The position numbers and the translations under genes are program-made. The notes under the pieces were generated by a model. That model saw only the letters and a list, made by a program, of their open reading frames with translations. It was not told where the DNA came from and did no database searches. A stretch of DNA of 64,000 bases from Actinomycetota bacterium (lineage in GTDB: Bacteria; Actinomycetota; Acidimicrobiia; Acidimicrobiales; CADCSY01): the NCBI GenBank assembly GCA_019347915.1, contig JAHWKL010000001.1, forward strand, positions 3,612 to 67,611, written 5' to 3'. Positions 8,604 to 39,060 of the stretch are shown in pieces. Position 1 is the stretch's first letter. Every line of letters begins with the position of its first letter.

Positions 8604-8645
8604 GGTTCCCGCGTGTTCTCGTGCGCAGCGCTGGTGCCGAAGTCG
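8604..8645 (+). repeat. partial copy (E) of the repeat-family 3' module
   Basis: GGTTCCCGCGTGTTCTCGTGCGCAGCGCTGGTGCCGAAGTCG aligns with the 3' part of A1/A2. Confidence 0.45.
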
Positions 8646-8654
8646 TGCGCGTGA

Positions 8655-9706: not shown

Positions 9707-9853
9707 TGGGAGCTCCCGGTCCTCGGCGAGATCGCTGCGCCCTCGGCCGTGGTGATCCGACCCGACGGGCACGTCAGCTGGGCAGGAGATCCAACGGACC
9801 CAGAGCTGCCTCGAGCACTTGCCACCTGGTTCGGAGCGGCTACTCCGGCTTGA
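9707..9853 (+). pseudogene. orphan 3' fragment of a Rox-like FAD monooxygenase
   Basis: WELPVLGEIAAPSAVVIRPDGHVSWAGDPTDPELPRALATWFGAATPA-stop is about 88% nt-identical by hand alignment to the last ~150 nt of the intact gene at 39746..41215. Nothing homologous lies upstream of 9707. Confidence 0.75.
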
Positions 9854-12835: not shown

Positions 12836-12971
12836 GGCTCACATGCTCGCGCATCCTGGCGGCTGCCCACTCCGACTGGAAACTGCATCGGGTGCCGCAA
12901 GGCATCTCAGAACGACCCACCACCGAAAGGGCTGCTGTCGCCCTTGCCGGGTTGTGACGCACCTGCGGGCG

Positions 12972-13079
12972 CCCGGTATCCGGCGGTTGCGTGCGCCTGG
13001 GCCGCACGAGTTCGCTCCCCGGTCGGGTGCCACGGGTTCCGAGGGTTACCGGGCACAGCGCTGGTGCCGAAGTCGGGCG
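12972..13079 (+). repeat. dispersed intergenic repeat, copy A1
   Basis: 108 nt differing at 2 positions from 18356-18463. Contains the hairpin cgtgcg-cctgggc-cgcacg and the 3' module GGTTACCGGGC.CAGCGCTGGTGCCGAAGTCGGGCG. Confidence 0.85.
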
Positions 13080-18244: not shown

Positions 18245-18355
18245 TCTTTGACGTCAGCTCAGCTTGGCTAGATGTACAGGACCTCGGCCGAGGGCAGAGA
18301 CTCCTATGACCAGAAGCCGCGAAAGCTGGTCCACTGCGCCACCAGACGGGGTGCA

Positions 18356-18463
18356 CCCGGTAACCGGCGGTTGCGTGCGCCTGGGCCGCACGAGTTCGCT
18401 CCCCGGTCGGGTGCCACGGGTTCCGAGGGTTACCGGGCGCAGCGCTGGTGCCGAAGTCGGGCG
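18356..18463 (+). repeat. dispersed intergenic repeat, copy A2
   Basis: See A1. The 5' arm cccggtaacc (18356-18365) is the exact reverse complement of ggttaccggg (18428-18437). Confidence 0.85.
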
Positions 18464-20340: not shown

Positions 20341-21627
20341 CTATTGGCCAATGCCTGGCGTCACGCTCCGTATGGCTACGAGCAATGCGCCCGCGCTCCA
20401 CGCTTGGAACGGCGTGCCCTGCGGCGAGCCATCACGCCCGTCCAACCACTCGTGAAAGCCCCAGTGATCGCCGTCCCTTGCCTGGCGGTTTGCGTCGATG
20501 AGCCTAACCAGCTGTCGCTTCGCGTCAACTAGAAGCCCAGCTCGAGCGAGGGCCGCGACCAAGAATCCACCAATCATCGGCCACACACCCGCGTTGTGGT
20601 AACGGTAAGGGGCGTTGTGCCAACGAGGGTCCTGGAATACCTCTGCTCCGCGATCCCATAGCGAGCGAGCGTCTTCCCCATTGTCGGGTTCTTCCCATGC
20701 ACGACACGGGTAAGGGCTCATCTCCGCCGCACTCGCCAGGCGGGTCGCGATGGTACTGGCTCTTTCGCCCACGGCAACGCCAAACAGAATCGCCAAGCAG
20801 TTCGCGAGGACGTCGAGTCGATCAACGACGTTTCCATAATCGACGTGCGAAAGATAATGCTGGCGCTCTGGATCAACCGCTGCAGCGAGGGCACGGCGCG
20901 TCGTGACGTGAGGGAACCTTCGAACCCTTCTGCCTGAAGGCAGTTCGTGAGCGAGACAACCGTCGACGGCATGCGCACTCTCAGGCCAGAAGATCGAGTT
21001 GATGCGTTCAACCACGGTGGTCGGGCGTACTGGGCCGAGATCGCCTCCAAGATGCTCTAGTGCACTAAGTGCTTCTGCGTAGAGCACATTTACATAGAAC
21101 ACCTTTCCTCGCCGGTTGAGCGTCGAGTCCATCCACTCGGCCCCAGATGGGGAGTCGATCAAGCCCCAGTTGCTTGCGTCCTGATGGGAAAGCCACGACA
21201 GAGCGCGTTCGGCATGCGGCAGGAGCTCTCCGACGACAGTATCGTCGTGCGTAACGTCCCAGTAATTTCGGAGTGCGATTACGAAGAGAGCAGACGAGTC
21301 AGTAGAACCGTTTTCTCCCCAGTCCCAATGAGATCGGGCCGGCCATACAGTGTTCGGTATCTGACCAAAACGGCCCTGGTGGCGCGCAAGAGTTCGCAGT
21401 GACTCAGCGGCTGCCTGCGTCAGAGACAGATCACGAGCAAGGAGGGCGCCCCAAGAGCTATAGACCGCGTCGCGAGCCCAGACGCCCCCGTAGTGCGAGT
21501 CCCCGCTTGCGGCCGCGAATCCGAACGGCGAAGCGCAGGAGTGCAGCAACGTGCACGCTTGGTCGTAGGCGTCCCTGGTGACCGCATCCAATCGCTGCAC
21601 CTTCATCAGCCTATATCTGTTCAACAA
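20341..21627 (-). CDS. (alpha/alpha)6-barrel glycoside hydrolase (GH100 invertase / glycogen-debranching GDB1-like)
   Basis: PFGFAAASGDSHYGGVWARDAVYSSWGAL, GQIPNTV and C-terminal GFHEWLDGRDGSPQGTPFQAWSAGALL. Lower GC than flanks. Confidence 0.7.
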   Translation of the reverse strand: MLNRYRLMKVQRLDAVTRDAYDQACTLLHSCASPFGFAAASGDSHYGGVWARDAVYSSWGALLARDLSLTQAAAESLRTLARHQGRFGQIPNTVWPARSHWDWGENGSTDSSALFVIALRNYWDVTHDDTVVGELLPHAERALSWLSHQDASNWGLIDSPSGAEWMDSTLNRRGKVFYVNVLYAEALSALEHLGGDLGPVRPTTVVERINSIFWPESAHAVDGCLAHELPSGRRVRRFPHVTTRRALAAAVDPERQHYLSHVDYGNVVDRLDVLANCLAILFGVAVGERASTIATRLASAAEMSPYPCRAWEEPDNGEDARSLWDRGAEVFQDPRWHNAPYRYHNAGVWPMIGGFLVAALARAGLLVDAKRQLVRLIDANRQARDGDHWGFHEWLDGRDGSPQGTPFQAWSAGALLVAIRSVTPGIGQ

Positions 21628-21840
21628 GGACGTTGTCGCCTGCGAACGAGCGGCGAAAGTGCCCCGTTGTCGGAGAGCCGTTCACGGTTACCCCCGCACC
21701 GTGATGTCGTGCACTCCCGAGACCACGGCCGCTCGGATGCCCTTCCACCCCAACTCCGATGGGATGTGGACTTGCGGAGGTCGTGTCTGAGAGACCTTAA
21801 TACTCGTGTCCCTCCACGACGTACTGAGTGAGGTTGACGC

Positions 21841-23013
21841 GTGATCGAGGATGTCCGCTCAGCGTGCCGTTCTGTCTTGAATGCGGCGTGGGTGCCACAC
21901 ATGGGATATTGCGTCCCGAACCCGCGTACCTATCCCCATCTCTGGCTTTGGGATTCATGCTTTCATAGTCTGGCTTGGATGGGTCAGCGGGATCCAAGGT
22001 GTTTGCAGGAACTGAGTGCCATCTTTGTCGCTCAGACCGACTCAGGATTTGTTCCACATATGCGCTACCTTGGTCGTCCGACGTATCGGCGCGGGCCTCG
22101 CCGAGACGCGTCGTCGCTAACGCAGCCGCCGGTCTATGGGCTCGTGATAGAGCGTCTCACGGACGCCGGCTGGGAAGTACCGAAGACTGTTACGGACGCA
22201 GCGCTAAGAGCGATCAGCTACTTATGGCTACGTCGACGCACAGGCGAAGGCTTGCTGGCCCTCTACCACCCTTGGGAGTCGGGAGCCGACGACTCGCCTC
22301 GCTGGGACTCCTGGGTGGGGACCTCAACTTGGAGCCGGTGGCGATTCGCACTTAGCGATCGCTATCTCCTGTATCGGATGGTCTTCGATTCGGAAGAAGC
22401 GGCCTGTGGGTCACGATCGTTTGTTTCGTGCCCTGCAGCGTTCAACGCTATCGCCGGATATACAGCTGGATCGCTTGGCCGTGTCACTGGTGACCCCGTA
22501 GCCACGCGCATCGCAGATCAACTAGGTGAAAGCATCGATGCCGTTCTCTGGAATGAAGATGAGCGACTGTGGGACGACTTGCCTAAAGTCGGCCGCGGGG
22601 AGTCGCAGTCCGCCCCGACACTGGACGGTGTTCTGGGTGCTTTGATCACACGGGATTCTCGGAAGGCGATGAGGGCACTAGATCAGGTTGTAGATCCTGA
22701 TCGTTTTGGTGCTCCATATGGTGTTCGGTACCTTCCGCGAGGGCATCAGTTGTACGAGCCGGACTTGTATTGGAGAGGCCCGGCATGGCCGCAAATGAAT
22801 TATCTATTGTGGCTTGCTGCCTATAGATGGAATCGGGATGACGTTATCGAGGCGGTTCAAGACGCGAGCTGGCGGTCGGCGGCTTCCTCCTCTCTGGCGG
22901 AATACTGGAATCCGGAAACGGGGAATGGCCGAGGCGCGATCCCGCAGACATGGGCTACCTTGGTTACTGCTGTAGCACAGGACTTCGCACCTCCCAGCGA
23001 ATTCTCGCCTTGA
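21841..23013 (+). CDS. GH63-like hydrolase (glucosyl-/mannosylglycerate hydrolase or trehalase-like)
   Basis: YPHLWLWDSCFHSL, LTQPPVYG, HPWESGADDSPRWD, YWRGPAWPQMNYLL, EYWNPETG. Confidence 0.7.
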   Translation: MIEDVRSACRSVLNAAWVPHMGYCVPNPRTYPHLWLWDSCFHSLAWMGQRDPRCLQELSAIFVAQTDSGFVPHMRYLGRPTYRRGPRRDASSLTQPPVYGLVIERLTDAGWEVPKTVTDAALRAISYLWLRRRTGEGLLALYHPWESGADDSPRWDSWVGTSTWSRWRFALSDRYLLYRMVFDSEEAACGSRSFVSCPAAFNAIAGYTAGSLGRVTGDPVATRIADQLGESIDAVLWNEDERLWDDLPKVGRGESQSAPTLDGVLGALITRDSRKAMRALDQVVDPDRFGAPYGVRYLPRGHQLYEPDLYWRGPAWPQMNYLLWLAAYRWNRDDVIEAVQDASWRSAASSSLAEYWNPETGNGRGAIPQTWATLVTAVAQDFAPPSEFSP

Positions 23014-23169
23014 CCTCCGGGTCGTGTCCTGTCGGGATTTGGAAGAAGCGAGGGGCCTCTTTCGTGCGGGTGGCTGAAGACTGAAGTAGTCGTTGCCGTT
23101 ACCCGGGATCTCCGGGACCGGCGCGGCCGCCAGTGGCCCGACCGCCGGTTGCACCGCACCGGCACGGCC

Positions 23170-23347
23170 GCCCGGGAACCGGCGGAGCCGGGCGCTTGCA
23201 AGGCCCAATAACGCCGGTCGACCATCCTGCTGCAGGGCCCACTGTCAGCCCCATCTGCTGTCGGTGGCACGTCTTACCGCCGGTCCATGCGAGCAGTGGC
23301 AAAAGGCCCTTGGCGCACCTCGAAGGTCATGGGGATGAGTTGCTGGA
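23170..23347 (+). repeat. dispersed repeat, copy C1 (preceded at 23098-23165 by further short family fragments)
   Basis: About 80% identical by eye to 32968-33141. Shares the 5' module (G)CCCGG.AACCGGCGG with A1/A2, then a C-specific block ...GTCGACCATCCTGCTGCA.GGCCCACTGTCAGCCC.ATCTGCTGTCGG...TCGAAGGTCATGGG.ATGAG.TGCTGGA. Confidence 0.6.
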
Positions 23348-23528
23348 AAATCGGGGAGCACTGAGGGTGTCCCGTGCCCATCGTGTGCCCGTCCCGTGTT
23401 GGTCCCCGCCCGACCTGGGCTTTTGTGCCCTTCTTCTGACACTCGATCAGGAGGACCGTCGCTGAAGTAGGCGATGTTCCTCGCCACGGGCAACGAGGCG
23501 GAGACAGCCTTCGAGCCACGGCGGTGTC

Positions 23529-23575
23529 GCGGTCTCCAAAACCGACGACCGGAGGTTCGACTCCTTCCGAGCCTG
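23529..23575 (+). pseudogene. tRNA-Trp-like 3' two-thirds (anticodon arm, variable loop, T arm, 3' acceptor strand); no convincing 5' acceptor/D arm
   Basis: cggt-CUCCAAA-accg anticodon arm (CCA), 5-nt variable loop, T arm ggagg-TTCGACT-ccttc, then cgagcct-g. The complementary 5' strand was not found upstream. Confidence 0.35.
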
Positions 23576-23666
23576 CTTCCACGCTCCCGGCAAACAGTCG
23601 GGACGCCAGCACCTTGACAACAGCAGAGACATCGTCGTCGAGGCCAGCGCCACCTGGCTTCGACAT

Positions 23667-23746
23667 GGGTCGGTCGCGCCATGGGGCGCAGCTGGCTGTA
23701 GACCAGCCGTCTTCCGACACAGGGGGTTCGATTCCCTCCCGGCCCA
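23667..23746 (+). tRNA. tRNA-Tyr(GUA)-like, class II, non-canonical D arm and G37
   Basis: Hand fold: acceptor gggtcgg/ccggccc, U8, D stem gcg/cgc with an 8-nt loop containing GG, anticodon arm gctgg-CUGUAGA-ccagc, 14-nt variable arm with gtc/gac stem, T arm ggggg-TTCGATT-ccctc, discriminator A. No encoded CCA. Confidence 0.5.
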
Positions 23747-23750
23747 CCGC

Positions 23751-23827
23751 GCGCGTCACGCCTGACAGGTAGGGCACCGGGCTCTTACCCCGGACAAGAC
23801 TGGGTTCGAGTCCCAGGGCGCGCACCA
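23751..23827 (+). tRNA. tRNA-Lys(CUU)-like with encoded CCA, A8 instead of U8 and C38
   Basis: Hand fold: acceptor gcgcgtc/ggcgcgc, D stem gcct/gggc with loop gacaggta, anticodon arm ccggg-CUCUUAC-cccgg, 6-nt variable loop, T arm ctggg-TTCGAGT-cccag, then A-CCA. Confidence 0.55.
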
Positions 23828-23828
23828 C

Positions 23829-23916
23829 GCCGCCGTAGCTCAGCCGGCCAGTCCGGTGGCGAGGATGTGAAGCACGCCACGCTCGTGATGCCGGTTCGAC
23901 TCCGCCGGCCACACCA
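23829..23916 (+). pseudogene. degenerate tRNA-Thr(CGU)-like element
   Basis: Canonical start gccgccg-ta-gctc, then about 30 nt inserted in the D region (hairpin gccgg/ccggt). It has a CUCGUGA loop but lacks the 3' anticodon-stem strand. T arm gccgg-TTCGACT-ccgcc has one mismatch. Ends ...cacacca. Confidence 0.35.
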
Positions 23917-23945
23917 CCAACCAACACGACGAGGAGGGGGATCAC

Positions 23946-25106
23946 ATGCCCACCAACATCAACGACAAGCTGATCTCCTGGGCGTCGGATATCGACGACC
24001 AGACGATCCGCCAAGCCGAGAAGGCAGCGCGGCTGCCGATCGTCGAGGGCCATGTCGCCCTCATGCCCGACGCTCACGTCGGCATCGGTGCCACCGTGGG
24101 CTCGGTGATCCCCACGAAGAACGCGGTGATCCCGTCGGCGGTCGGCGTGGACATCGGTTGCGGGATGATCGCGGCCGAGCTCGATGTGACCGAGGACCAG
24201 CTGCCGGATGCGCTCGAGCCACTGCTCGGCCGTATCGAGAAGGCCATCCCGGCCGGCGTGGGCCAGGGTCATGACCGGGTGGCCCGCAACGCCGACCGGT
24301 GGCTGGCACAGCACAAGCCGGCGACCGAGCTGGCCGCCGACCGCACGGCAAAGGTGCTCAAGCAGTTCGGCACGCTCGGTTCGGGCAACCACTTCTTCGA
24401 GCTGTGCGTGGACGAGCGCCGGCAGGTGTGGGTGGTGCTGCACTCGGGGTCGCGCGGCATCGGCAACCAGCTCGCGCAGGCGCACATCGCCAAGGCGCGC
24501 AAGCTGGCCAAGGATCTCGAGCTGCGGCTCGAGGACCCGGACCTCGCGTACTTCCTGGAGGGCACGCCGGAGTTCGCCGCCTACATCGGCGACATGCTGT
24601 GGGCCCAGGACTACGCGCTGGCCAACCGCGAGCAGATGATGGACAACGCCATGCGCGAGGTGTTCGCGTTCTTCGGCTTCGGCCGGGAGACGCGGCGCAT
24701 CAACTGCCACCACAACTTCACCCAGCGCGAGGTACACAACGGTAACGAGCTGTGGATCACCCGCAAGGGTGCGATCAAGGCCGCGGTCGGCGACCTCGGC
24801 GTCATCCCCGGCTCGATGGGCACGCGCAGCTACATCGTGGCGGGCAAGGGCAACGAGGCGAGCTGGACGTCGTGCTCGCACGGCGCCGGCCGTCGTCACA
24901 GCCGCACCAAGGCCAAGAAGCTCTTCACCACCGCCGACCTCGCCCAGCAGATGCAGGGCAAGGTGTGGCTCGCCGACCGGGCCGGCGCGCTGGTGGACGA
25001 GATCCCCTCGGCCTACAAGGACATCGATCAGGTCATGGCCGACCAGCTCGATCTCGTCGAGGTCCTGCACACGCTGCACCAGGTCCTCAACTACAAGGGC
25101 ACCTGA
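23946..25106 (+). CDS. rtcB: RNA 3'-phosphate/2',3'-cyclic phosphate ligase RtcB
   Basis: VALMPDAHVGIGATVGSVIPT, VGVDIGCGM, GSGNHFFEL, HSGSRGIGNQ, PGSMGTRSYIV, CSHGAGR. GAGGAGGGGG RBS 5 nt upstream. Confidence 0.95.
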   Translation: MPTNINDKLISWASDIDDQTIRQAEKAARLPIVEGHVALMPDAHVGIGATVGSVIPTKNAVIPSAVGVDIGCGMIAAELDVTEDQLPDALEPLLGRIEKAIPAGVGQGHDRVARNADRWLAQHKPATELAADRTAKVLKQFGTLGSGNHFFELCVDERRQVWVVLHSGSRGIGNQLAQAHIAKARKLAKDLELRLEDPDLAYFLEGTPEFAAYIGDMLWAQDYALANREQMMDNAMREVFAFFGFGRETRRINCHHNFTQREVHNGNELWITRKGAIKAAVGDLGVIPGSMGTRSYIVAGKGNEASWTSCSHGAGRRHSRTKAKKLFTTADLAQQMQGKVWLADRAGALVDEIPSAYKDIDQVMADQLDLVEVLHTLHQVLNYKGT

Positions 25107-25121
25107 GGCAGCAATGAGGAT

Positions 25122-25151
25122 GGCCCCGTCCGGACCGAGCCGGGCGGGGCC
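25122..25151. terminator. 12-bp GC-rich hairpin between convergent rtcB and 25194..25616 (no U-tract)
   Basis: ggccccgtccgg-accgag-ccgggcggggcc. All 12 pairs are Watson-Crick or G-U. Confidence 0.45.
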
Positions 25152-25193
25152 ACTCGTGTAGGCGTGAGGCGCAGAGGCGCGGCAGCGGGCCGT

Positions 25194-25616
25194 CTACCGG
25201 CCGGCCCCGGCGAGGGCCTCCTCGGGACCAAGCCCGATCCATCGCAGCCGGTTGTACATCTCCAGCGCCGCCGGGTCCTCGACTGCGTTCGGTGGAAGGG
25301 GGACGAACACCACGGGCATTGCCGGGTCGTGGCCCAGCGGGAATGTGCTCTCCGACGGCCTCGCCCCAACGTAGATGCAGACCCGGTCTGGGCCTGCGAT
25401 CTCGACCATCTCGCTCAAGGCGAGCAGTCCCTCTCCGGTAGGCGTCTCCGACGCGGCCACGAAGACGTCGAGGCCGGACACCGACGGGTTCTCCTGGGAC
25501 TGCTCACCAAGAAGCTGCGTGAACAGCTCCCGGGTGACGACCACACCCGAAGCGGGACCGCCGTGCATCCGTTCGGCGCCTTTGACCCAGGTTTCGAGGA
25601 TCTCGGTAAGGGTCAT
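25194..25616 (-). CDS. hypothetical protein (140 aa)
   Basis: Internal ATG 25616 (MTLTEILETWVKGAERMHGG...). The composition is normal, unlike the Arg-rich upstream extension. No family recognised. Confidence 0.55.
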   Translation of the reverse strand: MTLTEILETWVKGAERMHGGPASGVVVTRELFTQLLGEQSQENPSVSGLDVFVAASETPTGEGLLALSEMVEIAGPDRVCIYVGARPSESTFPLGHDPAMPVVFVPLPPNAVEDPAALEMYNRLRWIGLGPEEALAGAGR

Positions 25617-32916: not shown

Positions 32917-32967
32917 GGAGTTCCTACCACGGTCTCGCCCCCGACCGCTTCATGGGCTCTGCGTGCC

Positions 32968-33141
32968 GCCCGGTAACCGGCGGAGCCGGGCGCTGGCAAG
33001 CCCGATACCACCCGTCGACCATCCTGCTGCATGGCCCACTGTCAGCCCGATCTGCTGTCGGCACGTCGTGCCGCCGTTCGAGGCGAGCAGTAGCGAAGGG
33101 CTCTCCGCGCACGTCGAAGGTCATGGGAATGAGCTGGTGGA
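32968..33141 (+). repeat. dispersed repeat, copy C2; an A-type 3' module follows at 33218-33257
   Basis: See C1. GGTTCCCGCGCGTTCTGTCGCACGCGTCGCGGGGCGTCGG at 33218-33257 aligns with copy E and the A 3' part. Confidence 0.6.
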
Positions 33142-33693: not shown

Positions 33694-33882
33694 AGCGAAA
33701 CGGACCTTGACGACTGGCGGCGTCCCCGGCGGTCCCGTGTCCTCTGCCTTCACGAGGCGTTAGTGGAGAGTGAGTGTCCCGCCATCGTGGCGCGCACAGC
33801 TGACATGCCGCGCCCGTCTTACACTCCGCAGTGTGCTCGTGGTTGGATCGGTCGGGGAGGCTCAGCTGGTGAGGAGACGGCC

Positions 33883-36800
33883 ATGATCGAGGTCGCTGGG
33901 CGCGTCACGGTCCGCGGGTCGGGCGTGCCGGTGGGGAACGTGGTGGTCGAGGCGTTCGACGTCGCGAAAGCGCGGCGAGGGTCGAGCGCGCTGACCGGCG
34001 GCGACATCGGATGGGTTGGCGACGCACCGAGCCTGGGCTCGGCGCTGACCGACGCGGACGGTCGCTTCTCGTGGACCACCGGAGAGGGTGAGGACAACCG
34101 CAGCCGCGTCATCGCCGTGGCCGTATTCGCGCCCAGCGGCGGCGGCGGGCGTGCCGGTCGAAGTCTCGAGCTGCTCCACCTCGTGCCCCGGCTGCGGAAG
34201 GCGGGCGACGGCGTGCACCGCTACGCCATCGCGATCGACCCCGAGCGGCTCCGGCGGGCTGCGGCCGACGGGTCGGCGGACGCGGCGACCCCGGGCGGCG
34301 CCGAGGGGCGCGCGGCGGCGGCGCGCACGCGGGTCGCGGCCAGGGTGACCGAGCGGGAGGCGGCGGCCGCGATCCGCCGGCGGGCCTTGGCGCGCGCCCG
34401 CCCGCTGCGCGAGGCGCTCGACGCCGCCGTGCGCGACGCCCTCCGGGAGCGGACGGTCGCACCCGTGCGCCGGGGAAACGGCGACTTGCCCCCCGCCGTC
34501 CTGGCCGTTGGCGAGACCGTACGTGCGCACACCCGGCGGCTGCTCGACGAGGCGCTGCGCAACCGGGCGAGCGTGGCGACAGCGAGGGGGCTCGTCGACC
34601 TCAGCGACGGCGACACCGCCGTCCTGCTGGACGGGTCGGGCGCGCCGGCGAGCGGGCTGACCGACGACGACGTGCGGCGCGTCCTCTTCGGTGTCGAGCA
34701 CGAGACGGGGCCGCCCAGCCGGTACCGGCGGGACCTCCTCTCGATCGCGTGCCGCAACCGCACGCCGCCCTACCAGCGCTGCAGCGACGCTGGGGAAGAC
34801 GAGGACGGGGACGGGGACGGCGACGGGGACGGCGACGGGGACGGCGACGGCGGTGGGGACGGTGATGGCGAGAGCGGCGAGGCGACGGCCGCGCTCATCA
34901 AGCGCATGGTCGCCCGCCTGCTCAAGGACCTCGCCGAGTTCCCGGTGGTGGCGGGCGTTGAATCGGCCCGGGCGACGGCCGCGGGCATCGGCCGGCAGCT
35001 GCGCGACCTCACCATCGAAGGCGGACCGGCCGACGCCGTCGCCCTCTTCGAGTTCGAACGCCTGTTCCTCGCGTCCGACCTGCTCGTGTCGCCCCGGCCC
35101 GATCCGGGTCTGATCAGTGACCTGATCGACTCGGGCCGCAAGCTGTCCGCCCTCGGAGGCGACCTCGACGGGGCGTCACGAGGAGGCGACGTCATCGACG
35201 CCATCGCCGCGGAGAGCTCCCTCCTCGCGGCTGAGGACCCGCTCCGGAGCGGGGCGGGATCCGGCTCCAGCAGCGCCCGCTCGCCGGTCTTCTTCGGGCT
35301 TCCCAACCCTTTCGACATCCTCGACGACATCGCCGACGCGATCAGCGACGCGCTCACGCCGCGCGACCGGTTCGTTCAGCTGCGAGCGTTCCTCGACGAC
35401 CTTCGCCGGCTGCGGCGCAGCGACTATCCGTTCACGCCGTTTGCGACCGACGACACCGGTCGCTCGGTCAGCGCCGGCCTCCTCGTGGGCTACCAGCAGC
35501 GGTGGGAGCCGCGTGGCTACCAGGCGGGTGAGCTGGTGAAGACTATCCCGCTCGCGCCCAAGGCTTCGATCCGCTACTCAGCCCGGCGCAAGTCCGCCAA
35601 GACCTATACCGACCGGCGGGCGGAGGCGTCGGAGTCGCGCTACAGCAGCGAGGCGGCCGACGTGCAGCGGGACGTGGCGAAGATCGTGCGCGACACCAAG
35701 CTGTCGACGTCGTTCACGCTGTCGAAGGAGGCAGGGGCCGGGGTGCCGGGCGTCGGGTCGGGCACGACGACGAGCGTGTGGACCGCGGGGGCCGAGCGCA
35801 CGTCGTCCTCCACAAAGGAGGCGTTTCGGGAGGCGACGCGCAAGCGGGCCGAGGAGCACAAGCGCAGCTCGACCATGGAGGTCACCGTGTCGAGCACCGA
35901 CGAGGTCGAGGTGACCGAGGCGAGCGAGATCGGCAACCCCAACGAGGAGCTGGTCGTCACGTACCTGTTCTACGAGCTGCAGCGCCGGTTCCTCGTGTCC
36001 GAGCGACTGCAGCGGGTGACGCCCGTCGCCGTCGTGGCCCACGAGCTGCCGGCACCCAGCGAGCTCGACGAGTCGTGGGTCGCCCGGCACGACTGGATCC
36101 TCCGGCGGGTGCTGCTCGACCCCTCCTTCCAGCCCGCCATCGAGTACGCGGTCTCGGGCAAGCTCGTCGCTGACCTCGGCAAGGCGGAGGAGCTCGAGTC
36201 GGCCGTCGACCGCCAGGCCGCGCTCGTCGAGTCGCTCAAGCGCGAGCTGGCCGCCCTGCGCTCCGAGGATCTGCTGCCCGACCCGCGGAACATCTTCGAG
36301 CTGTTCAAGGTGCGGATCTACGACGAGAAGTACCCGGGGTGGCGCGAGGACGAGCAGCGCGTGGGAGAGGTTTTCGGGGAGGACGTCGCCAACCGGCTGG
36401 CCGAGCGGCGACGGGCCATCGAGCGTGTCGAGGGCGAGATCGGCAAGCAGGCGACCGAGCTGGAACGGACCACGGCTGCGTTCAACGAGGCCTTCATGAC
36501 GTACGCCACCGAAGCAGTCCAGGTGGAGCGCTTCCTGCTCCACCTGAAGGACAACATCCTCCACTACCAGCACGCGATCTGGGACCACGAGACCAAGGAC
36601 CAGCGCTACCTCCGGTTGCGCCACGCGCCGGTGCCGGCGGTCGCGGGCTCGGTTGCGTACACGCTCGAGCCGTCGGGGCTCCCGCCCCGTCCGCCCACGT
36701 GGCGCGCACCATTGAAGGTGACGGCCCGGGCGAGCCTGCGGGTCGACGACGAGGGGGAGCTGGGCGACGTGGCCGACGTGGCCAACCTGCTCGGCTACGT

Positions 36801-37341
36801 CGGCAACGCCATGGTGTTCCCGATGATGCGGTGGGACCCCCTGATCGAGTTCCTCATGGCGCCGTTCGCGTCGGCCATCACGGGGGTCGTCGATCCCGAC
36901 GATACGGCCAACGCGACGATGTCCGAGCTGGAGGAGCTCGTGTGCTGCCTGCAGGAGCGGCTGTCCAACGCCGAGTTCGAGGCGCTCAAGCCTGCCATCG
37001 ACGCGGCGTGGGAGGGCCGCATCAAGGACCCGCGTCCTGACGCGCAGGATCTCGTCATCCCGACCGGCTCGCTCTTCATCGAGGCGCTGCCCGGCGGTCA
37101 TCCCGTGCTCGAGGACTTCAAGCTGCTGCACCGCTCCCTCGACGTGCAGCAGGTGGCGAGTGAGCTCGTGTCGGAGCGGCTCGAGCAGCTGCGGTACGCA
37201 TCGCGGCTCCTGCAAGACGTGCTCGACGACCCTGATGCCGACCGCCAGATCGTCGTGCGGGGCGACATCGCCGGGCTGCTGGTCGACCCAGACGGAGACG
37301 GGGACGGCGGCGACGGTGGTGGCGGTGGTGGCGGTGGGTAG
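33883..37341 (+). CDS. large (1152 aa) protein of unknown function: N-terminal transthyretin/CarboxypepD_reg-like beta-sandwich, poly(Asp-Gly) tracts, beta-rich central region, coiled coil
   Basis: ATG 33883 follows GAGGAG. N-terminus IEVAGRVTVRGSGVPVGNVVVEAFD...TDADGRFSW. No Walker A, signal peptide or TM helix seen. Normal codon/aa composition outside the low-complexity tracts. Confidence 0.8.
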   Translation: MIEVAGRVTVRGSGVPVGNVVVEAFDVAKARRGSSALTGGDIGWVGDAPSLGSALTDADGRFSWTTGEGEDNRSRVIAVAVFAPSGGGGRAGRSLELLHLVPRLRKAGDGVHRYAIAIDPERLRRAAADGSADAATPGGAEGRAAAARTRVAARVTEREAAAAIRRRALARARPLREALDAAVRDALRERTVAPVRRGNGDLPPAVLAVGETVRAHTRRLLDEALRNRASVATARGLVDLSDGDTAVLLDGSGAPASGLTDDDVRRVLFGVEHETGPPSRYRRDLLSIACRNRTPPYQRCSDAGEDEDGDGDGDGDGDGDGDGGGDGDGESGEATAALIKRMVARLLKDLAEFPVVAGVESARATAAGIGRQLRDLTIEGGPADAVALFEFERLFLASDLLVSPRPDPGLISDLIDSGRKLSALGGDLDGASRGGDVIDAIAAESSLLAAEDPLRSGAGSGSSSARSPVFFGLPNPFDILDDIADAISDALTPRDRFVQLRAFLDDLRRLRRSDYPFTPFATDDTGRSVSAGLLVGYQQRWEPRGYQAGELVKTIPLAPKASIRYSARRKSAKTYTDRRAEASESRYSSEAADVQRDVAKIVRDTKLSTSFTLSKEAGAGVPGVGSGTTTSVWTAGAERTSSSTKEAFREATRKRAEEHKRSSTMEVTVSSTDEVEVTEASEIGNPNEELVVTYLFYELQRRFLVSERLQRVTPVAVVAHELPAPSELDESWVARHDWILRRVLLDPSFQPAIEYAVSGKLVADLGKAEELESAVDRQAALVESLKRELAALRSEDLLPDPRNIFELFKVRIYDEKYPGWREDEQRVGEVFGEDVANRLAERRRAIERVEGEIGKQATELERTTAAFNEAFMTYATEAVQVERFLLHLKDNILHYQHAIWDHETKDQRYLRLRHAPVPAVAGSVAYTLEPSGLPPRPPTWRAPLKVTARASLRVDDEGELGDVADVANLLGYVGNAMVFPMMRWDPLIEFLMAPFASAITGVVDPDDTANATMSELEELVCCLQERLSNAEFEALKPAIDAAWEGRIKDPRPDAQDLVIPTGSLFIEALPGGHPVLEDFKLLHRSLDVQQVASELVSERLEQLRYASRLLQDVLDDPDADRQIVVRGDIAGLLVDPDGDGDGGDGGGGGGGG
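34795..34872 (+). repeat. in-frame hexanucleotide (GAY-GGN) tandem repeat encoding EDEDGDGDGDGDGDGDGDGGGDGDGE
   Basis: Read directly. A second tract at 37288-37338 encodes the C-terminal DPDGDGDGGDGGGGGGGG. Confidence 0.85.
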
Positions 37342-37365
37342 CGGGTAGCGGCCCCGTTCGCACCA

Positions 37366-39060
37366 ATGGCCCCGAAGCCACCGCGGGTCCCCGTCACCCG
37401 CATCGATCCCGAGACGCAGCGGGCGCTCGAGGAGGCGCGCCGCACCACGGACCGAGCCAACGATCCCGACGACGGCTTGACCCGGGCGGGCGCGACCACC
37501 AAGCACAAGGAGGCGGTGGCCGAGTACCACGCTCGCCAACACCTCCGGCAGACGTTCGGCGAGGACCTCGGCGAGGAGATTGTCCTCCCCCGGCGGGGCG
37601 CTCGCCGGCGCCGGCAGGGCGAGGGCCCGCCGATCCTGGACGCCGCGTACGAGCTGCGGGACGGCCGCGTGCTCGTGGTCGAGGTGAAGTACGGCAAGTC
37701 GAAGCTGGGCCGCACCCGGCGTGAGGTCTTCGCTGCGAGCGAGGAAGGCGACGTCGCGCGGCGCGTGACCCGGCGGGGCACGAGGCAGTTCTCGCCCGAC
37801 TGGTTCCGCGACCGCCTGAACGAGCTGGCGAGCAAGGGCGGCGACTCGACCCGGATCGCCAACCGGATGCGCGCGGCGTGGACGGAGGGACGCATCGTGG
37901 CCCAGGTGATCTACGTCGACCGGGCCGGCAACGTGGAGGTCGACGACCGCACCGAGCAGTGGCGGCGGGCCGGCATGGTGCGGCGGCCATCGCATCCGGC
38001 TGGCACGGCCGCACCAGCGGGGCGCGGCACCACGACGGGCAGGGGTGCGCCGGTACCGACGGCGCGCGGCACGACGGCCGGGGGCACGGCCGCACCGATG
38101 GGACCCGGCACGACGACGGGCGGGGGCTCGCCCGCACCGCAGCGAGCCCGGTCGGGCTCGGTGGGCGACCGGGCCACGTCGGCGCGCGTCGCCACGCCGG
38201 CCGACCCCGCTTCGGTTCCTCGGACAGCGGCCGGCGGTGGCGGCCCCGCGCCGGCGTCGCAGGCCGGACCACGGCTGCGGGCGGGCGGCCTAGGCGGCGC
38301 GCGCGGCGCCGGCGGGGTGGCGGACTTGTTGCACACCGCGGCGCGAATGGGGGTGGCCGCGAGTGAAGCGCGCCGGGCGGAGAAGGCGTTCCACGCGATG
38401 CTACCCGCGGTCGAGCGCTACCGGAGCGAGGGTTATTGGGTGGCGCTGACGCTCGTCGTCGAGCGGCCGATCCGGACGGACCTGACCGGGTTCGACAACC
38501 GCCTGCGGTTCACGTGCTGGCAGCTAGAGTACGGCCGGACCGAGGCCGCGGCCCGCGGGAACAAGCCGGCGACGATCGGTCCAGCGCCGAGCCGCGAAGA
38601 GACGAGAGGTCGGCGGTCGAACCCGTGCCAGCCGTCGCGCGCGGACTGGGAGCTCGTGTCGCTCGCACCGATCGTGTTCCCGCCGTACGAGGAGTTCGCG
38701 CGCGCCGAAGGGTTTGGCGCGGGCGGGACGTACGAGGTGGTGTCGACTGACTTCGGAGGCGTGCCTGAGCCCGCGATCGTGCGGGCCCGGCGGCTCACGA
38801 TCATCCGAATCGACCAGGACGCGCCTCCGCGCCTCACTATCCTCGACCTGTCCAGCGGCGAGCGCCTCGGCACCTACGTCATCCGCCAGACCGACCGCAT
38901 CATCACGGTGCTCATCGGGTCGCCTCGGCGGAGAGCGTCGTCGGAGAGCACCTTCATGCGGCTGGCCTCACCGTCGGGCGACAACCTCGTGCTCGAGATG
39001 TTCCGCGGACCGCACACCGGTGGCCGGGCTGGGATCGTGCTGTGGCGCGCCATCCGATGA
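37366..39060 (+). CDS. 564-aa protein: N-terminal PD-(D/E)xK nuclease-like domain, Gly/Thr/Ala/Pro-rich repetitive linker, C-terminal domain of unknown function
   Basis: Starts 24 nt after the preceding stop. The E...D...ExK pattern is HKEAVAEYHARQ ... PPILDAAYELRDGRVLVVEVKYGKSKL. The linker has GTT(T/A)G-type repeats. Confidence 0.7.
   Translation: MAPKPPRVPVTRIDPETQRALEEARRTTDRANDPDDGLTRAGATTKHKEAVAEYHARQHLRQTFGEDLGEEIVLPRRGARRRRQGEGPPILDAAYELRDGRVLVVEVKYGKSKLGRTRREVFAASEEGDVARRVTRRGTRQFSPDWFRDRLNELASKGGDSTRIANRMRAAWTEGRIVAQVIYVDRAGNVEVDDRTEQWRRAGMVRRPSHPAGTAAPAGRGTTTGRGAPVPTARGTTAGGTAAPMGPGTTTGGGSPAPQRARSGSVGDRATSARVATPADPASVPRTAAGGGGPAPASQAGPRLRAGGLGGARGAGGVADLLHTAARMGVAASEARRAEKAFHAMLPAVERYRSEGYWVALTLVVERPIRTDLTGFDNRLRFTCWQLEYGRTEAAARGNKPATIGPAPSREETRGRRSNPCQPSRADWELVSLAPIVFPPYEEFARAEGFGAGGTYEVVSTDFGGVPEPAIVRARRLTIIRIDQDAPPRLTILDLSSGERLGTYVIRQTDRIITVLIGSPRRRASSESTFMRLASPSGDNLVLEMFRGPHTGGRAGIVLWRAIR

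What the first reader, a model, noticed from the sequence alone, without database searches (positions are those of the whole stretch)
23529..25106. Array of four tRNA-like elements packed directly upstream of, and co-oriented with, the RNA ligase gene rtcB
Four tRNA-like elements lie within about 390 nt on the rtcB strand, and the last ends 29 nt before the rtcB ATG.

**Two fold by hand into full cloverleaves:**
- 23667-23746 is Tyr-like. Its anticodon loop is CUGUAGA and it has a class-II variable arm.
- 23751-23827 is Lys-like. Its anticodon loop is CUCUUAC and it has an encoded CCA.

**Two are incomplete:**
- 23529-23575 is Trp-like. It has a CUCCAAA arm, T arm and 3' acceptor strand but no 5' half.
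- 23829-23916 is Thr-like. It has a canonical 5' start and a CUCGUGA loop, a ~30-nt insertion in the D region, and lacks the 3' anticodon-stem strand.

The last three are spaced only 4 and 1 nt apart. All four keep TTCGA(N)T T-loops. They deviate at normally conserved positions: A8 in the Lys-like element, G37 in the Tyr- and Thr-like loops, and C38 in the Lys-like loop.

RtcB reseals RNAs ending in 2',3'-cyclic phosphate, including tRNAs cut by anticodon nucleases. Phage tRNA arrays with anticodon-loop substitutions have been reported to escape such nucleases, and bacterial Y-RNA-like YrlA RNAs with a tRNA-like module are often encoded next to rtcB/rsr.

The locus could therefore be any of these:
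1. A co-transcribed tRNA replacement/repair module, possibly of prophage origin.
2. tRNA-mimic regulatory or decoy RNAs for RtcB.
3. A decayed tRNA cluster at an old integration hotspot. A repeat copy and a lower-GC island sit immediately upstream.
Basis: partly seen in the sequence, partly recalled or inferred. Interest (0 to 1): 0.8.

Follow-up and report, generated by a model that had tools for sequence, protein, structure and literature searches.

The report
Decayed tRNA array around rtcB
The four tRNA-like elements upstream of the RNA ligase gene rtcB are the eroded remains of a long tRNA gene array that surrounds rtcB in related bacteria; two tRNAs (Tyr, Lys) and rtcB are still intact, and the other two elements are broken leftovers.

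Summary
rtcB (23946-25106) is intact. tRNA-Tyr(GTA) (23667-23748) and tRNA-Lys(CTT) (23751-27) pass both ARAGORN and the Rfam tRNA threshold.

The "Trp-like" element is a non-canonical Trp-type tRNA-like gene that is conserved in relatives. Here it has lost its first ~4 nt at a rearrangement breakpoint at 23510/23511.

The "Thr-like" element is not Thr. It is a deletion chimera: the first 23 nt of tRNA-Asp fused to the last ~62 nt of a tRNA-Gly. About 865 bp that hold six tRNA genes in the closest relative are missing.

In related Acidimicrobiia, rtcB sits inside a co-oriented tRNA array with 9-11 genes upstream and 7-9 downstream, in the same order (Trp, Tyr, Lys, Asp...). In two loci the array is followed by rsr (Ro60). 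The window keeps only 23511-25151 of this module. It lacks the conserved upstream inverted repeat and every downstream tRNA.

Horizontally spread long tRNA arrays linked to rtcB are already described in cyanobacteria. The annotated genome of mycobacteriophage Bongo shows the same layout.

Verdict: a decayed new member of a known kind, of modest interest. The family-level features are more interesting: 31% of the array tRNAs have C33, and some arrays are linked to rsr.

The parts
23511..23576 (+). 5'-truncated Trp(CCA)-type tRNA-like pseudogene (ARAGORN call 23506-23576). In relatives it is the first member of the array.
   Evidence: - ARAGORN calls it. Rfam tRNA is below threshold.
- Homology to L001, L027, L004 and L006 starts at 23511.
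- Only the window copy has acceptor pairs 3:69 and 4:68 broken.
- It carries 4 private substitutions at columns that are invariant in relatives.
23577..23666 (+). Trp-Tyr spacer with two stable hairpins (about 23583-23606 and 23637-23664) and a conserved motif, CCTTGACAAC-GCAGAGACATCGTCGT.
   Evidence: - Fold z = -3.87.
- The motif columns are invariant across relatives in alignment A2.
- Its function is unknown.
23667..23748 (+). Intact tRNA-Tyr(GTA): class II variable arm, A73, G37, a 6-nt D loop, and an encoded CCA mutated to CCG.
   Evidence: - ARAGORN. Rfam 43.2 bits.
- 79/80 identical to L001, with no private change at conserved columns.
23751..23827 (+). Intact tRNA-Lys(CTT): A8/G14, C38, A73 and an encoded CCA.
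   Evidence: - ARAGORN. Rfam 46.6 bits.
- 73/74 identical to L001 and L003, with no private change.
23829..23851 (+). 5' fragment (nt 1-23) of tRNA-Asp(GTC), the left arm of the deletion chimera.
   Evidence: - 23/23 identical to L001 1287-1309.
- The same start is seen in the Asp genes of L027, L006 and L003.
23852..23913 (+). 3' fragment (from about nt 11) of the Gly(GCC/ACC) tRNA that precedes rtcB in relatives. Relic anticodon loop ACGCCAC at 23874-23880; T loop at 23895-23901.
   Evidence: - 85.7% identical to L001 2181-2261 and aligned in A1.
- There is a 1-nt insertion in the anticodon stem and a 1-nt deletion in the T stem.
- No tool calls it a tRNA at default settings. Relaxed ARAGORN gives only a nonsense call.
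23931..23940 (+). Shine-Dalgarno-like GAGGAGGGGG, 5-6 nt before the rtcB ATG.
   Evidence: Read from the sequence. It is conserved in L001, L003, L004 and L006.
23946..25106 (+). rtcB, a 3'-phosphate/5'-OH RNA ligase of 386 aa.
   Evidence: - Pfam RtcB 4.1e-114. Catalytic Asp/Cys/His and the GMP-binding His are conserved.
- dN/dS is 0.13-0.30 against five relatives. GC3 is 0.94.
25121..25152 (+). 13-bp G+C-rich hairpin just after the rtcB stop codon. It is the last segment homologous to relatives; the right breakpoint follows it.
   Evidence: - Fold z = -4.35.
- Window 25104-25151 matches L027 at 82.7%. The hairpin is conserved in L027 and L004.
- There are no tRNAs downstream in the window.

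Best explanation
**What it is.** The locus is a truncated copy of a composite operon in which rtcB is embedded in a long array of co-oriented tRNA genes. This is an 'L-array'-type accessory tRNA set.

**The intact form.** Related Acidimicrobiia show:
- a conserved inverted repeat, followed by Trp*-Tyr-Lys-Asp-Arg-Arg-Thr-Glu-Asn-Cys-Gly;
- then rtcB and a hairpin;
- then Thr-Phe-Ile-Val-His-Ala-Leu-Pro-Gln;
- in two loci, the Ro60 gene rsr after that.

**Three rearrangements in this genome.**
1. A left breakpoint inside the 5' acceptor strand of the Trp element (23510/11). It removed the conserved upstream control region.
2. An internal deletion of about 865 bp. It fused nt 23 of tRNA-Asp to nt 11 of the Gly tRNA (23851/52). 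It removed the rest of Asp, the first 10 nt of Gly, and Arg, Arg, Thr, Glu, Asn and Cys.
3. Loss of everything beyond the post-rtcB hairpin (about 25152).

**What survives (shown).** tRNA-Tyr, tRNA-Lys and rtcB are intact and under purifying selection.

**How it most likely works (inferred).**
- The surviving parts are packed 4, 1 and 29 nt apart, with no room for a terminator, so they are most likely made as one transcript.
- RNase P and 3' processing would release Tyr and Lys and leave the rtcB mRNA.
- By analogy with the Anabaena trn operon/rtcB regulon and with phage tRNA+RtcB sets, the ancestral module would supply spare tRNAs plus a ligase that reseals tRNAs cut to 2',3'-cyclic-phosphate/5'-OH ends during translational stress or nuclease attack.
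- Here that capacity is reduced to two accessory tRNAs and the ligase.
- The Trp and Asp/Gly elements are most likely non-functional relics.
For: **Homology and synteny**
- Window 23511-23851 matches L001 969-1309 at 92.7% identity, and L027 at 85%. Window 23858-23940 matches L001 2181-2261, so L001 1310-2174 is missing.
- Gene order in relatives:
  - L027 has 11 tRNAs, then rtcB, then 9 tRNAs.
  - L001 has 10+7, L004 has 9+9 and L015 has 6+8.
  - The distant loci L032 (5+24) and L053 (27 upstream) are also array-linked.
- The tRNA genes in these arrays are co-oriented with rtcB.
- Most array members pass the Rfam tRNA threshold at 40-66 bits.

**Independent decay in other lineages**
- L003 keeps only Lys and Asp, plus an internally deleted Trp.
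- L004 lacks Tyr. In L006 the Lys gene is degenerate and the Tyr anticodon is mutated. L009 keeps only Trp.
- An RtcB neighbour-joining tree places array-less loci among array-bearing ones.

**Selection**
- rtcB against L001 has dS 0.40 and dN/dS 0.20.
- Tyr is 79/80 and Lys 73/74 identical to L001, against 76/88 in the spacer and about 69% identity at rtcB synonymous sites.
- Tyr and Lys have no private changes at conserved columns. Trp has four, plus two broken acceptor pairs.

**Identity elements (read from the sequence, judged against established bacterial tRNA identity rules)**
- A73 in Tyr and Lys, G73 in the Trp family, and a class II arm in Tyr.

**Boundaries**
- The conserved upstream inverted repeat CGCGCA-N8-TGCGCG is present in five relatives and absent from the window.
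- The hairpin after rtcB is conserved, and homology ends at 25151.

**Known counterparts**
- rtcB is linked to or embedded in cyanobacterial L-arrays, and in Anabaena it is co-induced with the trn operon (PMC8421152).
- TrcR represses both the trn operon and rtcB (PMC10272220).
- In Mycobacterium phage Bongo, an array of about 20 tRNAs ends 174 nt upstream of a co-oriented RtcB gene.
- About 9 of 80 viral RtcB loci carry arrays of at least 12 tRNAs.
Against: - There are no expression data, so co-transcription, processing and aminoacylation are all inferred.
- No sigma-70-like promoter was found in 22900-25400. The native upstream region is gone, so how the remnant is transcribed is unknown.
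- Only 64 kb of the genome is available. I could not test whether Tyr and Lys here are supernumerary or are the only genes of their kind.
- The direction of evolution (ancestral array with repeated loss, versus repeated gain by transfer) rests on a rough neighbour-joining tree and shared gene order.
- The flanks are not syntenic with any of the 80 loci. Transfer of an already truncated copy therefore cannot be excluded.
- The deletion junction was not found in any other assembly.
Confidence: 0.82

Rival explanations
1. An ordinary housekeeping tRNA-Tyr/tRNA-Lys pair, plus two old pseudogenes, happens to lie next to rtcB. There is no functional link.
For: - Tyr and Lys pass the tRNA thresholds and carry the correct discriminator bases.
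- The genome-wide tRNA set cannot be inspected.
Against: - The elements are orthologous, in the same order, to members of 17-20-gene arrays that enclose rtcB in relatives.
- 15 of 80 genomic and 26 of 80 viral RtcB loci have neighbouring tRNAs.
- Their Rfam scores (43-47 bits) and oddities (A8/G14, a 6-nt D loop, G37) contrast with 64-72 bits for the Gly/Cys/Val genes next to rtcB in L031 and L040.
- A close relative, L002 (RtcB 88% identical), has rtcB with no tRNA within 6 kb.
Confidence: 0.05
2. The elements are tRNA-mimic regulatory or decoy RNAs (YrlA/Y-RNA-like) that work with RtcB or Ro60.
For: - The full module is followed by rsr (TROVE) in L027 and L015.
- The YrlA model gives weak hits inside related arrays, including 40.2 bits in L001.
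Against: - There is no YrlA or Y RNA hit in window 23300-24000 at E<=10, and no TROVE gene in the window.
- The YrlA hits in relatives span the T arm of one tRNA and the D arm of the next. Chen et al. 2014 warn about exactly this false positive (PMC4201824).
- The two incomplete elements are fully explained as a truncation and a deletion fusion.
Confidence: 0.03
3. The module sits on a prophage or other mobile element and serves the element, countering host anticodon nucleases.
For: - RtcB-like ligases occur in 701 phage records, 221 of them from Mycobacterium phages.
- tRNA arrays lie directly upstream of RtcB in cluster M phages and in several viral contigs.
- Pope et al. 2011 proposed this role for phage RtcB plus tRNAs (PMC3203893).
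- A lower-GC island (about 20350-23050) and a 180-nt direct repeat (23166-23347 and 32966-33141) lie nearby.
Against: - None of the ORFs scanned between about 3 and 63 kb is an integrase, transposase or phage structural gene. The context is core chromosome: DinB, ClpB/C-type ATPase, RadA, IspD, Hsp20.
- The best viral RtcB is 69% identical, against 78-90% for cellular Acidimicrobiia.
- rtcB has a GC3 of 0.94, like the host core genes on the right side of the window.
- The low-GC island encodes glycoside hydrolases.
Confidence: 0.06
4. The Asp/Gly chimera, and perhaps the Trp relic, has been put to a new use as a tRNA-like processing or stability element in the rtcB 5' leader. RNase P would cut at its T-arm/acceptor minihelix and define the rtcB mRNA 5' end.
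For: - The chimera keeps a TTCGACT T loop, a T stem that is still largely base-paired and 5 of 7 acceptor pairs, and ends 29 nt before the ATG.
- The leader between it and rtcB is conserved with L001.
- Two of the window-private changes in Trp form a compensatory pair.
Against: - The chimera does not fold better than shuffled sequence, and its lowest-energy fold is not a cloverleaf.
- The junction is unique to this window, so there is no comparative support.
- The indels fall in stems.
Confidence: 0.08

Closest known systems
Long horizontally transferred tRNA gene arrays ('L-arrays', 'tRNA array units'), e.g. the Anabaena sp. PCC 7120 trn operon (Santamaria-Gomez et al. 2021, PMC8421152) and Mycobacterium arrays (Morgado & Vicente 2018, PMC5966550)
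   Same: - Relatives carry dense, co-oriented arrays of about 17-29 tRNA genes covering most amino acids.
- The arrays have a patchy distribution and sit in varying genomic contexts.
- Protein genes are embedded in them, and rtcB is among the genes linked to cyanobacterial L-arrays.
- In Anabaena, rtcB is co-regulated with the array under translational stress.
   Different: - The window itself holds only two intact tRNAs and two relics, so it is no longer a long array.
- In the Acidimicrobiia version rtcB sits in the middle of the array.
- No HNH endonuclease was seen in the few flanking genes I scanned.
- The literature search returned no paper that combines 'tRNA array' with Acidimicrobiia.
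Actinobacteriophage tRNA array + RtcB sets (cluster M mycobacteriophages such as Bongo; subcluster K1 phages, Pope et al. 2011, PMC3203893)
   Same: - A co-oriented tRNA array lies immediately upstream of an RtcB-like ligase. In Bongo it ends 174 nt before gp115.
- The RtcB is about 51-52% identical to the window protein.
- The proposed role is tRNA supply plus repair against tRNA cleavage.
   Different: - The window locus lies in core chromosomal context with no phage genes.
- The tRNA order and sequences are not those of the phage arrays.
- The window array is decayed.
rsr-yrlBA-rtcBA RNA repair operon of Salmonella (Ro60, tRNA-like Y RNAs, RtcB; Chen et al. 2014, PMC4201824)
   Same: rtcB is linked to tRNA-shaped RNAs and, in relatives L027 and L015, to a TROVE/Ro60 gene in the same orientation.
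   Different: - The window has no rsr, no rtcA and no YrlA match.
- The linked RNAs are true tRNA genes with anticodons and identity elements, not Y RNAs.
Phage T4 tRNA repair (Pnkp + Rnl1) against the PrrC anticodon nuclease, and nuclease-insensitive phage tRNAs (van den Berg et al. 2023, PMC10264068)
   Same: The logic is the same: replace or reseal tRNAs cut in the anticodon loop. Many array tRNAs in relatives carry unusual anticodon loops.
   Different: - The ligase chemistry differs: RtcB joins 3'-P/2',3'-cP to 5'-OH directly.
- No nuclease partner was identified here.
- Nothing about cleavage resistance was tested.

Membership tests
tRNA (Rfam RF00005 / ARAGORN cloverleaf) | Element 23667-23748 (Tyr): cloverleaf scoring above the family threshold, with an anticodon and a matching discriminator base | tested here: met
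   Rfam 43.2 bits against a threshold of 29. ARAGORN calls Tyr(GTA) with a class II arm and A73.
tRNA (Rfam RF00005 / ARAGORN cloverleaf) | Element 23751-23827 (Lys): cloverleaf scoring above the family threshold | tested here: met
   Rfam 46.6 bits. ARAGORN calls Lys(CTT) with A73 and CCA. The L001 orthologue scores 41.3 bits.
tRNA (Rfam RF00005 / ARAGORN cloverleaf) | Element 23506-23576 (Trp-like): cloverleaf scoring above the family threshold, with an intact acceptor stem | tested here: not met
   - The best clan hit is 20.7 bits to tRNA-Sec, E=0.19.
- Orthologues score 21.8-23.2 bits against the tRNA model.
- Two acceptor pairs are broken in the window copy only.
- ARAGORN alone calls it.
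tRNA (Rfam RF00005 / ARAGORN cloverleaf) | Element 23829-23916 ('Thr-like'): cloverleaf with an anticodon arm | tested here: not met
   - No tRNA-family hit at E<=10 and no default ARAGORN call.
- It is an Asp 5' / Gly 3' fusion.
- Fold z = -0.63.
Long tRNA array (L-array / tRNA array unit) | Many (roughly 10 or more, up to 43) closely spaced, co-oriented tRNA genes | tested here: not met
   The window has 2 intact genes plus 2 relics. Orthologous loci do meet the criterion: L027 has 20, L004 18, L001 17 and L032 29.
Long tRNA array (L-array / tRNA array unit) | Sequence homology and shared gene order with bona fide arrays | tested here: met
   92.7% identity to L001 and 85% to L027 over Trp-Tyr-Lys-Asp(5'), and 85.7% over Gly(3') and the leader.
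Long tRNA array (L-array / tRNA array unit) | Patchy phylogenetic distribution and variable genomic context | tested here: met
   Array-bearing and array-less RtcB loci are interleaved in the tree. None of the 80 loci shares the window's flanking genes.
Long tRNA array (L-array / tRNA array unit) | The genes are supernumerary to a housekeeping tRNA set, and are silent or stress-induced | not testable with these tools
   Only 64 kb of the genome is available, and there are no expression data.
RtcB RNA ligase | RtcB fold with the metal-binding Asp/Cys/His residues and the guanylylated His | tested here: met
   - Pfam PF01139 at 4.1e-114 over residues 23-385.
- The motifs D-x-x-C, GNHF, HSGSRG, HHN and SHGAGR align with RtcB of P. 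horikoshii and T. thermophilus.
- dN/dS is 0.13-0.30.
Rsr/Y-RNA/RtcB repair operon | A TROVE (Ro60) gene and a YrlA-type RNA adjacent to rtcB | tested here: not met
   There is no TROVE match in the window by tblastn or by Pfam on the neighbouring ORFs. There is no YrlA hit at E<=10.
E. coli-type rtcBA/rtcR operon | An adjacent rtcA cyclase and a sigma-54 activator, RtcR | tested here: not met
   Pfam scans of the ORFs flanking rtcB (about 14-33 kb) show glycoside hydrolases, TetR, beta-propeller proteins, LuxR and OsmC. There is no RTC cyclase and no RtcR.
Prophage-borne tRNA/RtcB module | Phage structural, replication or integrase genes around the module | tested here: not met
   None was found among about 40 ORFs scanned with Pfam. 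PHROGs was not run.

The most novel reading that the evidence does not exclude
The intact Acidimicrobiia module (tRNA array, rtcB, tRNA array and, in two loci, rsr) is a chromosomal operon for tRNA back-up and repair. The idea has three parts.

- **Nuclease evasion.** Its tRNAs carry conserved non-canonical anticodon loops. 26 of 85 have C33 in place of the near-universal U33. The same C33 recurs in orthologous Glu, Gly, Thr and His genes of diverged arrays. These loops would be selected to escape anticodon-loop nucleases, while RtcB reseals whatever is cut.
- **A retained core here.** In this genome, selection would have kept a minimal working unit of Tyr + Lys + RtcB. That would explain the near-identity of these two genes to L001 despite a dS of about 0.4.
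- **Origin of YrlA.** Tandem tRNA junctions next to rsr could be the raw material from which YrlA-type Y RNAs arose.
Probability: 0.18. Interest if true: 0.7.

Novelty: new member of a known kind. Interest (0 to 1): 0.35.

Why it matters
**For this window.** The result is mainly a correction.
- The 'array of four tRNA-like elements' is two live tRNA genes and two mapped wrecks.
- Annotators should not call a tRNA-Trp or a tRNA-Thr here.

**More broadly.**
- The locus is a dated snapshot of how accessory tRNA arrays erode. Deletions occur between tRNA genes with almost no microhomology, while the embedded ligase gene is kept under purifying selection.
- The comparison brought up a lineage of Acidimicrobiia arrays with rtcB in the centre and, in two loci, rsr at the end. 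An unusually high share of their tRNAs have C33.
- If those tRNAs are expressed and charged, they would give a cellular, non-phage system for testing the idea that spare tRNAs with altered anticodon loops, together with RtcB, protect translation from tRNA-cleaving toxins.

Tried and rejected
- **YrlA / Y RNA.** There was no hit in the window. Hits in relatives, including L001 4173-4235 at 40.2 bits, turned out to be junctions of tandem tRNAs, which is a documented false positive.
- **Prophage or mobile element.** Pfam scans of about 40 ORFs found no integrase, transposase or phage genes. tblastn of the flanking proteins against the 80 loci found no synteny.
- **Promoter.** The sigma-70 scan of 22900-25400 found nothing. 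The conserved TTGACA in the Trp-Tyr spacer has no -10 partner at 16-18 nt, so I did not call it a promoter.
- **Independent copies of the deletion junction.** A 30-mer and a 23-mer across 23851/52 have no exact match in the metagenome collection. The exact RtcB protein is not on record.
- **Apparent absence of tRNA-Lys in relatives by Rfam.** This was a filter artefact. Searched alone, the L001 Lys gene scores 41.3 bits.
- **The 180-nt direct repeats (23166-23347 and 32966-33141) as att sites.** They are 82-90% identical and bracket rtcB, but no element genes lie between them. The window also holds other dispersed repeat families. The question is left open.
- **Selective retention of Tyr and Lys because they are common nuclease targets.** Other lineages keep different subsets: L003 keeps Lys and Asp, and L006 keeps Asp, Arg and Asn. 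The pattern is better explained by where the deletions fell.

Full report
**1. What is in the window**

The region lies in a high-GC (about 68-70%) chromosome.
- The ORF at 23946-25106 (+) is an RtcB RNA ligase. It matches Pfam PF01139 at 4.1e-114 over residues 23-385.
- Aligned to solved RtcB structures, it keeps the D-x-x-C, GNHF, H-S-G-S-R-G, H-H-N and S-H-G-A-G-R motifs. These carry the metal ligands and the guanylylated histidine.
- A GGAGG-type ribosome-binding site lies at 23931-23940.

ARAGORN finds only three tRNA genes in the whole 64 kb, all directly upstream of rtcB and on its strand:
- Trp(CCA) at 23506-23576;
- Tyr(GTA) at 23667-23748;
- Lys(CTT) at 23751-23827.

Rfam supports only two of them. 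Lys scores 46.6 bits and Tyr 43.2 bits against a threshold of 29. The Trp element reaches 20.7 bits, and only against the tRNA-Sec model (E=0.19). The fourth element (23829-23916) matches no tRNA-clan family at E<=10. Neither of these two folds better than shuffled sequence (z = -0.23 and -0.63).

**2. Relatives show what this once was**

A scan of one genome per species for relatives of this RtcB returned 80 loci. The closest are Acidimicrobiia/Acidimicrobiales MAGs at 78-90% protein identity. In several of them rtcB is embedded in a long array of co-oriented tRNA genes:

| Locus | Arrangement |
|---|---|
| L027 | Trp, Tyr, Lys, Asp, Arg, Arg, Thr, Glu, Asn, Cys, Gly; rtcB; Thr, Phe, Ile, Val, His, Ala, Leu, Pro, Gln |
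| L001 | 10 upstream, 7 downstream (contig ends) |
| L004 | 9 upstream, 9 downstream |
| L015 | 6 upstream, 8 downstream |
| L036 | 9 downstream |
| L032 (Dehalococcoidia) | 5 upstream, 24 downstream |
| L053 (Elusimicrobia) | 27 upstream |

- In all, 15 of 80 loci have a co-oriented tRNA gene within 300 nt of rtcB.
- Most array members pass the Rfam tRNA threshold at 40-66 bits.
- The anticodons match high-GC codon usage in the high-GC hosts (CTT, CTC, CCG, CAG, CGG, CTG).
- In the 63%-GC locus L015 they shift to U34 forms.
- I take this as a sign that the arrays serve translation rather than acting as decoys. This is an inference.

**3. The window is a truncated copy of that module**

- Window 23511-23851 aligns to L001 969-1309 at 92.7% identity, to L027 at 85% and to L006 at 79%. 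The aligned block runs through Trp, the spacer, Tyr, Lys and the first 23 nt of tRNA-Asp.
- Window 23858-23940 aligns to L001 2181-2261 at 85.7%. That is the 3' two-thirds of the Gly tRNA that precedes rtcB, plus the rtcB leader.
- A global alignment places the junction between Asp nt 23 and Gly nt 11, with a single shared G.
- The window therefore lacks the equivalent of L001 1310-2174, about 865 bp. That stretch holds the rest of Asp, then Arg(ACG), Arg(CCG), Thr(GGT), Glu(CTC), Asn(GTT) and Cys(GCA), and the start of Gly.
- So the 'Thr-like' element is an Asp/Gly deletion chimera:
  - 'CUCGUGA' is the 3' anticodon-stem strand plus variable region of Gly.
  - The relic anticodon loop is ACGCCAC (23874-23880).
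  - The '30-nt insertion in the D region' is the fusion of two D loops.
  - The Gly part also carries a 1-nt insertion in the anticodon stem and a 1-nt deletion in the T stem.

**4. Left and right boundaries**

*Left.* In L001, L027, L004, L006 and L003, an inverted repeat CGCGCA-N8-TGCGCG lies about 12-20 nt upstream of the Trp element. A second conserved block (GCGCTGGTAA) lies further up. The window has neither. Its homology begins at 23511 (TCGAGCCA), inside the 5' acceptor strand.

The Trp-type element itself is real in relatives.
- On a six-sequence alignment, my hand-drawn structure has a 7-bp acceptor, a 3-bp D-arm substitute, an 8-bp anticodon stem with a bulged A, and a T arm.
- It pairs in 95.7% of cells, against 51% or less for slid controls. 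Three pairs change on both sides.
- The discriminator is G73, as expected for bacterial tRNA-Trp (established knowledge).
- The only acceptor mismatches (3:69 and 4:68) are in the window copy.
- The window copy also has four private substitutions at otherwise invariant columns.
- Two of those (23525 T and 23548 A) are a compensatory pair. The element was therefore still constrained for part of this lineage's history.

*Right.* Homology continues through a 13-bp G+C-rich hairpin at 25121-25152 (z = -4.35), which is conserved in L027 and L004. Homology stops at about 25151. No tRNA follows.

**5. What is still under selection**

- rtcB shows dS 0.34-0.62 and dN/dS 0.13-0.30 against five relatives.
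- Against L001 (dS 0.40, about 69% identity at synonymous sites), identities are:

| Segment | Identical to L001 |
|---|---|
| Tyr | 79/80 |
| Lys | 73/74 |
| Trp-Tyr spacer | 76/88 |
| Trp | 58/66 |

- Tyr and Lys have no private change at columns conserved in relatives.
- Tyr has A73 and a class II variable arm; Lys has A73. These are the expected bacterial identity features (judged against established knowledge).
- The only blemish is that the encoded CCA of Tyr reads CCG. A CCA-adding enzyme could repair this, which is an inference.
- I conclude that Tyr, Lys and rtcB are functional genes and that the other two elements are relics.

**6. The same erosion elsewhere**

- L003 keeps only Lys and Asp, plus a Trp element with an internal deletion.
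- L004 has lost Tyr through a deletion of about 49 nt.
- L006 has a degenerate Lys and a Tyr homologue whose anticodon now reads GGA.
- L009 keeps only Trp, and L016 and L023 keep one or two tRNAs.
- L002, L007, L010, L011 and L013 have no tRNA at all.
- A rough neighbour-joining tree of RtcB interleaves array-bearing and array-less loci. L015 (6+8) lies near the base of the clade, and L004 and L001 lie within it. That favours an ancestral array with repeated loss, though transfer is not excluded.
- None of the window's flanking genes is syntenic with any of the 80 loci.

**7. Context in the window**

- Upstream there is a lower-GC island (about 20350-23050, 57-63% GC) with two glycoside-hydrolase-like genes.
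- Between that island and the Trp relic is a 180-nt sequence (23166-23347) that recurs at 32966-33141 with 82-90% identity.
- Downstream are genes of unknown function, beta-propeller proteins, a LuxR-type regulator and OsmC.
- The rest of the window is core chromosome: DinB, a ClpB/C-type ATPase, RadA, IspD, Hsp20 and an ECF sigma factor.
- The ORFs scanned include no rsr, rtcA, RtcR, archease, PrrC/RloC, VapC or HEPN gene, and no integrase, transposase or phage gene.

**8. How it most likely works**

*Shown:*
- the anatomy of the locus;
- its homology to intact arrays;
- the three breakpoints;
- the intactness and conservation of Tyr, Lys and rtcB.

*Inferred:*
- The surviving parts are 4, 1 and 29 nt apart with no terminator between them, so they are probably transcribed together. 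RNase P and 3' processing would release the tRNAs and leave the rtcB mRNA.
- The promoter is unknown. The native upstream region is gone, and no sigma-70-type promoter was detected.
- The function is inferred from known systems:
  - In Anabaena, the accessory trn array and rtcB are repressed by TrcR and induced together when translation is impaired, and the array aids survival (PMC8421152, PMC10272220).
  - For mycobacteriophages that encode both tRNAs and RtcB, protection against host tRNA cleavage was proposed (PMC3203893).
- RtcB chemistry (joining 2',3'-cyclic-phosphate or 3'-phosphate ends to 5'-OH ends) is established knowledge.

**9. Comparison with what is known, and novelty**

- Long, horizontally spread tRNA arrays are documented in seven phyla, including Actinobacteria (PMC8421152; PMC5966550).
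- rtcB is one of the genes linked to cyanobacterial arrays.
- The annotated genome of Mycobacterium phage Bongo shows an array of about 20 tRNAs ending 174 nt upstream of a co-oriented RtcB gene.
- About 9 of 80 viral RtcB loci show arrays of at least 12 tRNAs.
- The kind is therefore known, and the window holds a decayed member.
- I found no paper that mentions tRNA arrays in Acidimicrobiia.
- Three family-level features may be new:
  - rtcB sits in the centre of the array.
  - In L027 and L015 the array is followed by a TROVE/Ro60 gene.
  - 26 of 85 array tRNAs carry C33 instead of U33, against 9 of 121 in phage arrays. The same C33 recurs in orthologous Glu, Gly, Thr and His genes.
- These features lie outside the window and are untested.

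**10. Verdict**

'Decayed cluster' describes the present state. 'Replacement/repair module' describes the ancestry and possibly a residual function. 'Mimic or decoy' is not supported.
- Novelty: a new member of a known kind. Interest: about 0.35.

Noticed in passing
L027 8327-9910; L015 8144-9388: A TROVE/Ro60 (Rsr)-like gene follows the downstream tRNA array in the same orientation as rtcB. The full layout is therefore array, rtcB, array, rsr. The 257-nt gap before rsr in L027 holds a T-arm-like GCCGTTCGAATCGGC but gives no YrlA hit.
   Followed up: partly
L053 3088-3413: A bacterial RNase P RNA (RF00010, 103 bits against a threshold of 100) lies inside a 27-tRNA array upstream of rtcB in an Elusimicrobia MAG.
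   Followed up: no
L001, L004, L027, L036, L015, L006, L003 (arrays): 26 of 85 array tRNAs have C33 instead of the near-universal U33. This is conserved between orthologous Glu(CTC), Gly(GCC), Thr(CGT) and His(GTG) genes of diverged arrays. The share is 7-14% in the phage, Dehalococcoidia and Elusimicrobia arrays.
   Followed up: partly
L001 965-1036, L027 4853-4923, L004 2476-2546, L006 5115-5184, L009 5886-5957; window 23511-23576: The first array member is a conserved non-canonical Trp(CCA)-type tRNA-like RNA. It has a 3-bp D-arm substitute, an 8-bp anticodon stem with a bulged A, and G73, and shows compensatory changes. In most of these loci an inverted repeat CGCGCA-N8-TGCGCG precedes it and a hairpin follows it. 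It may be a leader or regulatory unit rather than an ordinary tRNA.
   Followed up: partly
L003 1369-2799: An HTH + WYL-domain regulator gene ends about 30 nt before the conserved inverted repeat of a decayed array + rtcB locus. It is a candidate regulator, but only one locus shows it.
   Followed up: no
window 23166-23347 and 32966-33141: Two direct copies of a sequence of about 180 nt (82-90% identical) lie 9.8 kb apart. They bracket the array remnant, rtcB and eight downstream genes. No mobile-element genes lie between them.
   Followed up: partly
window 20350-23050: A lower-GC island (57-63% against about 68%) holds two divergently oriented MGH1/GH63-like glycoside hydrolase genes. It ends about 460 nt before the left breakpoint of the array remnant.
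   Followed up: partly
L027 ~6302-6309; L048 ~6474-6479; L017 ~535-542: rtcB carries a frameshift in three relatives, including L027, whose tRNA arrays are the most complete. This is either pseudogenisation or assembly error.
   Followed up: partly
L031 3082-5527; L040 5827-8092: rtcB sits between a high-scoring tRNA-Gly(GCC) (71.8 bits) and tRNA-Cys/tRNA-Val genes. This looks like an insertion into a Gly-Cys-Val tRNA cluster of housekeeping quality. It is a different kind of rtcB-tRNA linkage.
   Followed up: no
window 9705-9850 / 41064-41209; 12969-13079 / 18353-18463; 8604-8649: The window holds other dispersed direct-repeat families (90-97% identical, 46-146 nt). Their nature is unknown.
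   Followed up: no
window 33763-39060: Two large co-oriented ORFs (1192 and 564 aa, GC3 about 0.9) have no Pfam match. The first contains Gly/Asp-rich repeats.
   Followed up: no
L001 1209-1285 and orthologues: Method note. The Rfam searches of whole loci silently missed the Lys(CTT) genes of relatives. When the 106-nt stretch was searched alone the gene scored 41.3 bits, so this was a speed-filter artefact.
   Followed up: yes
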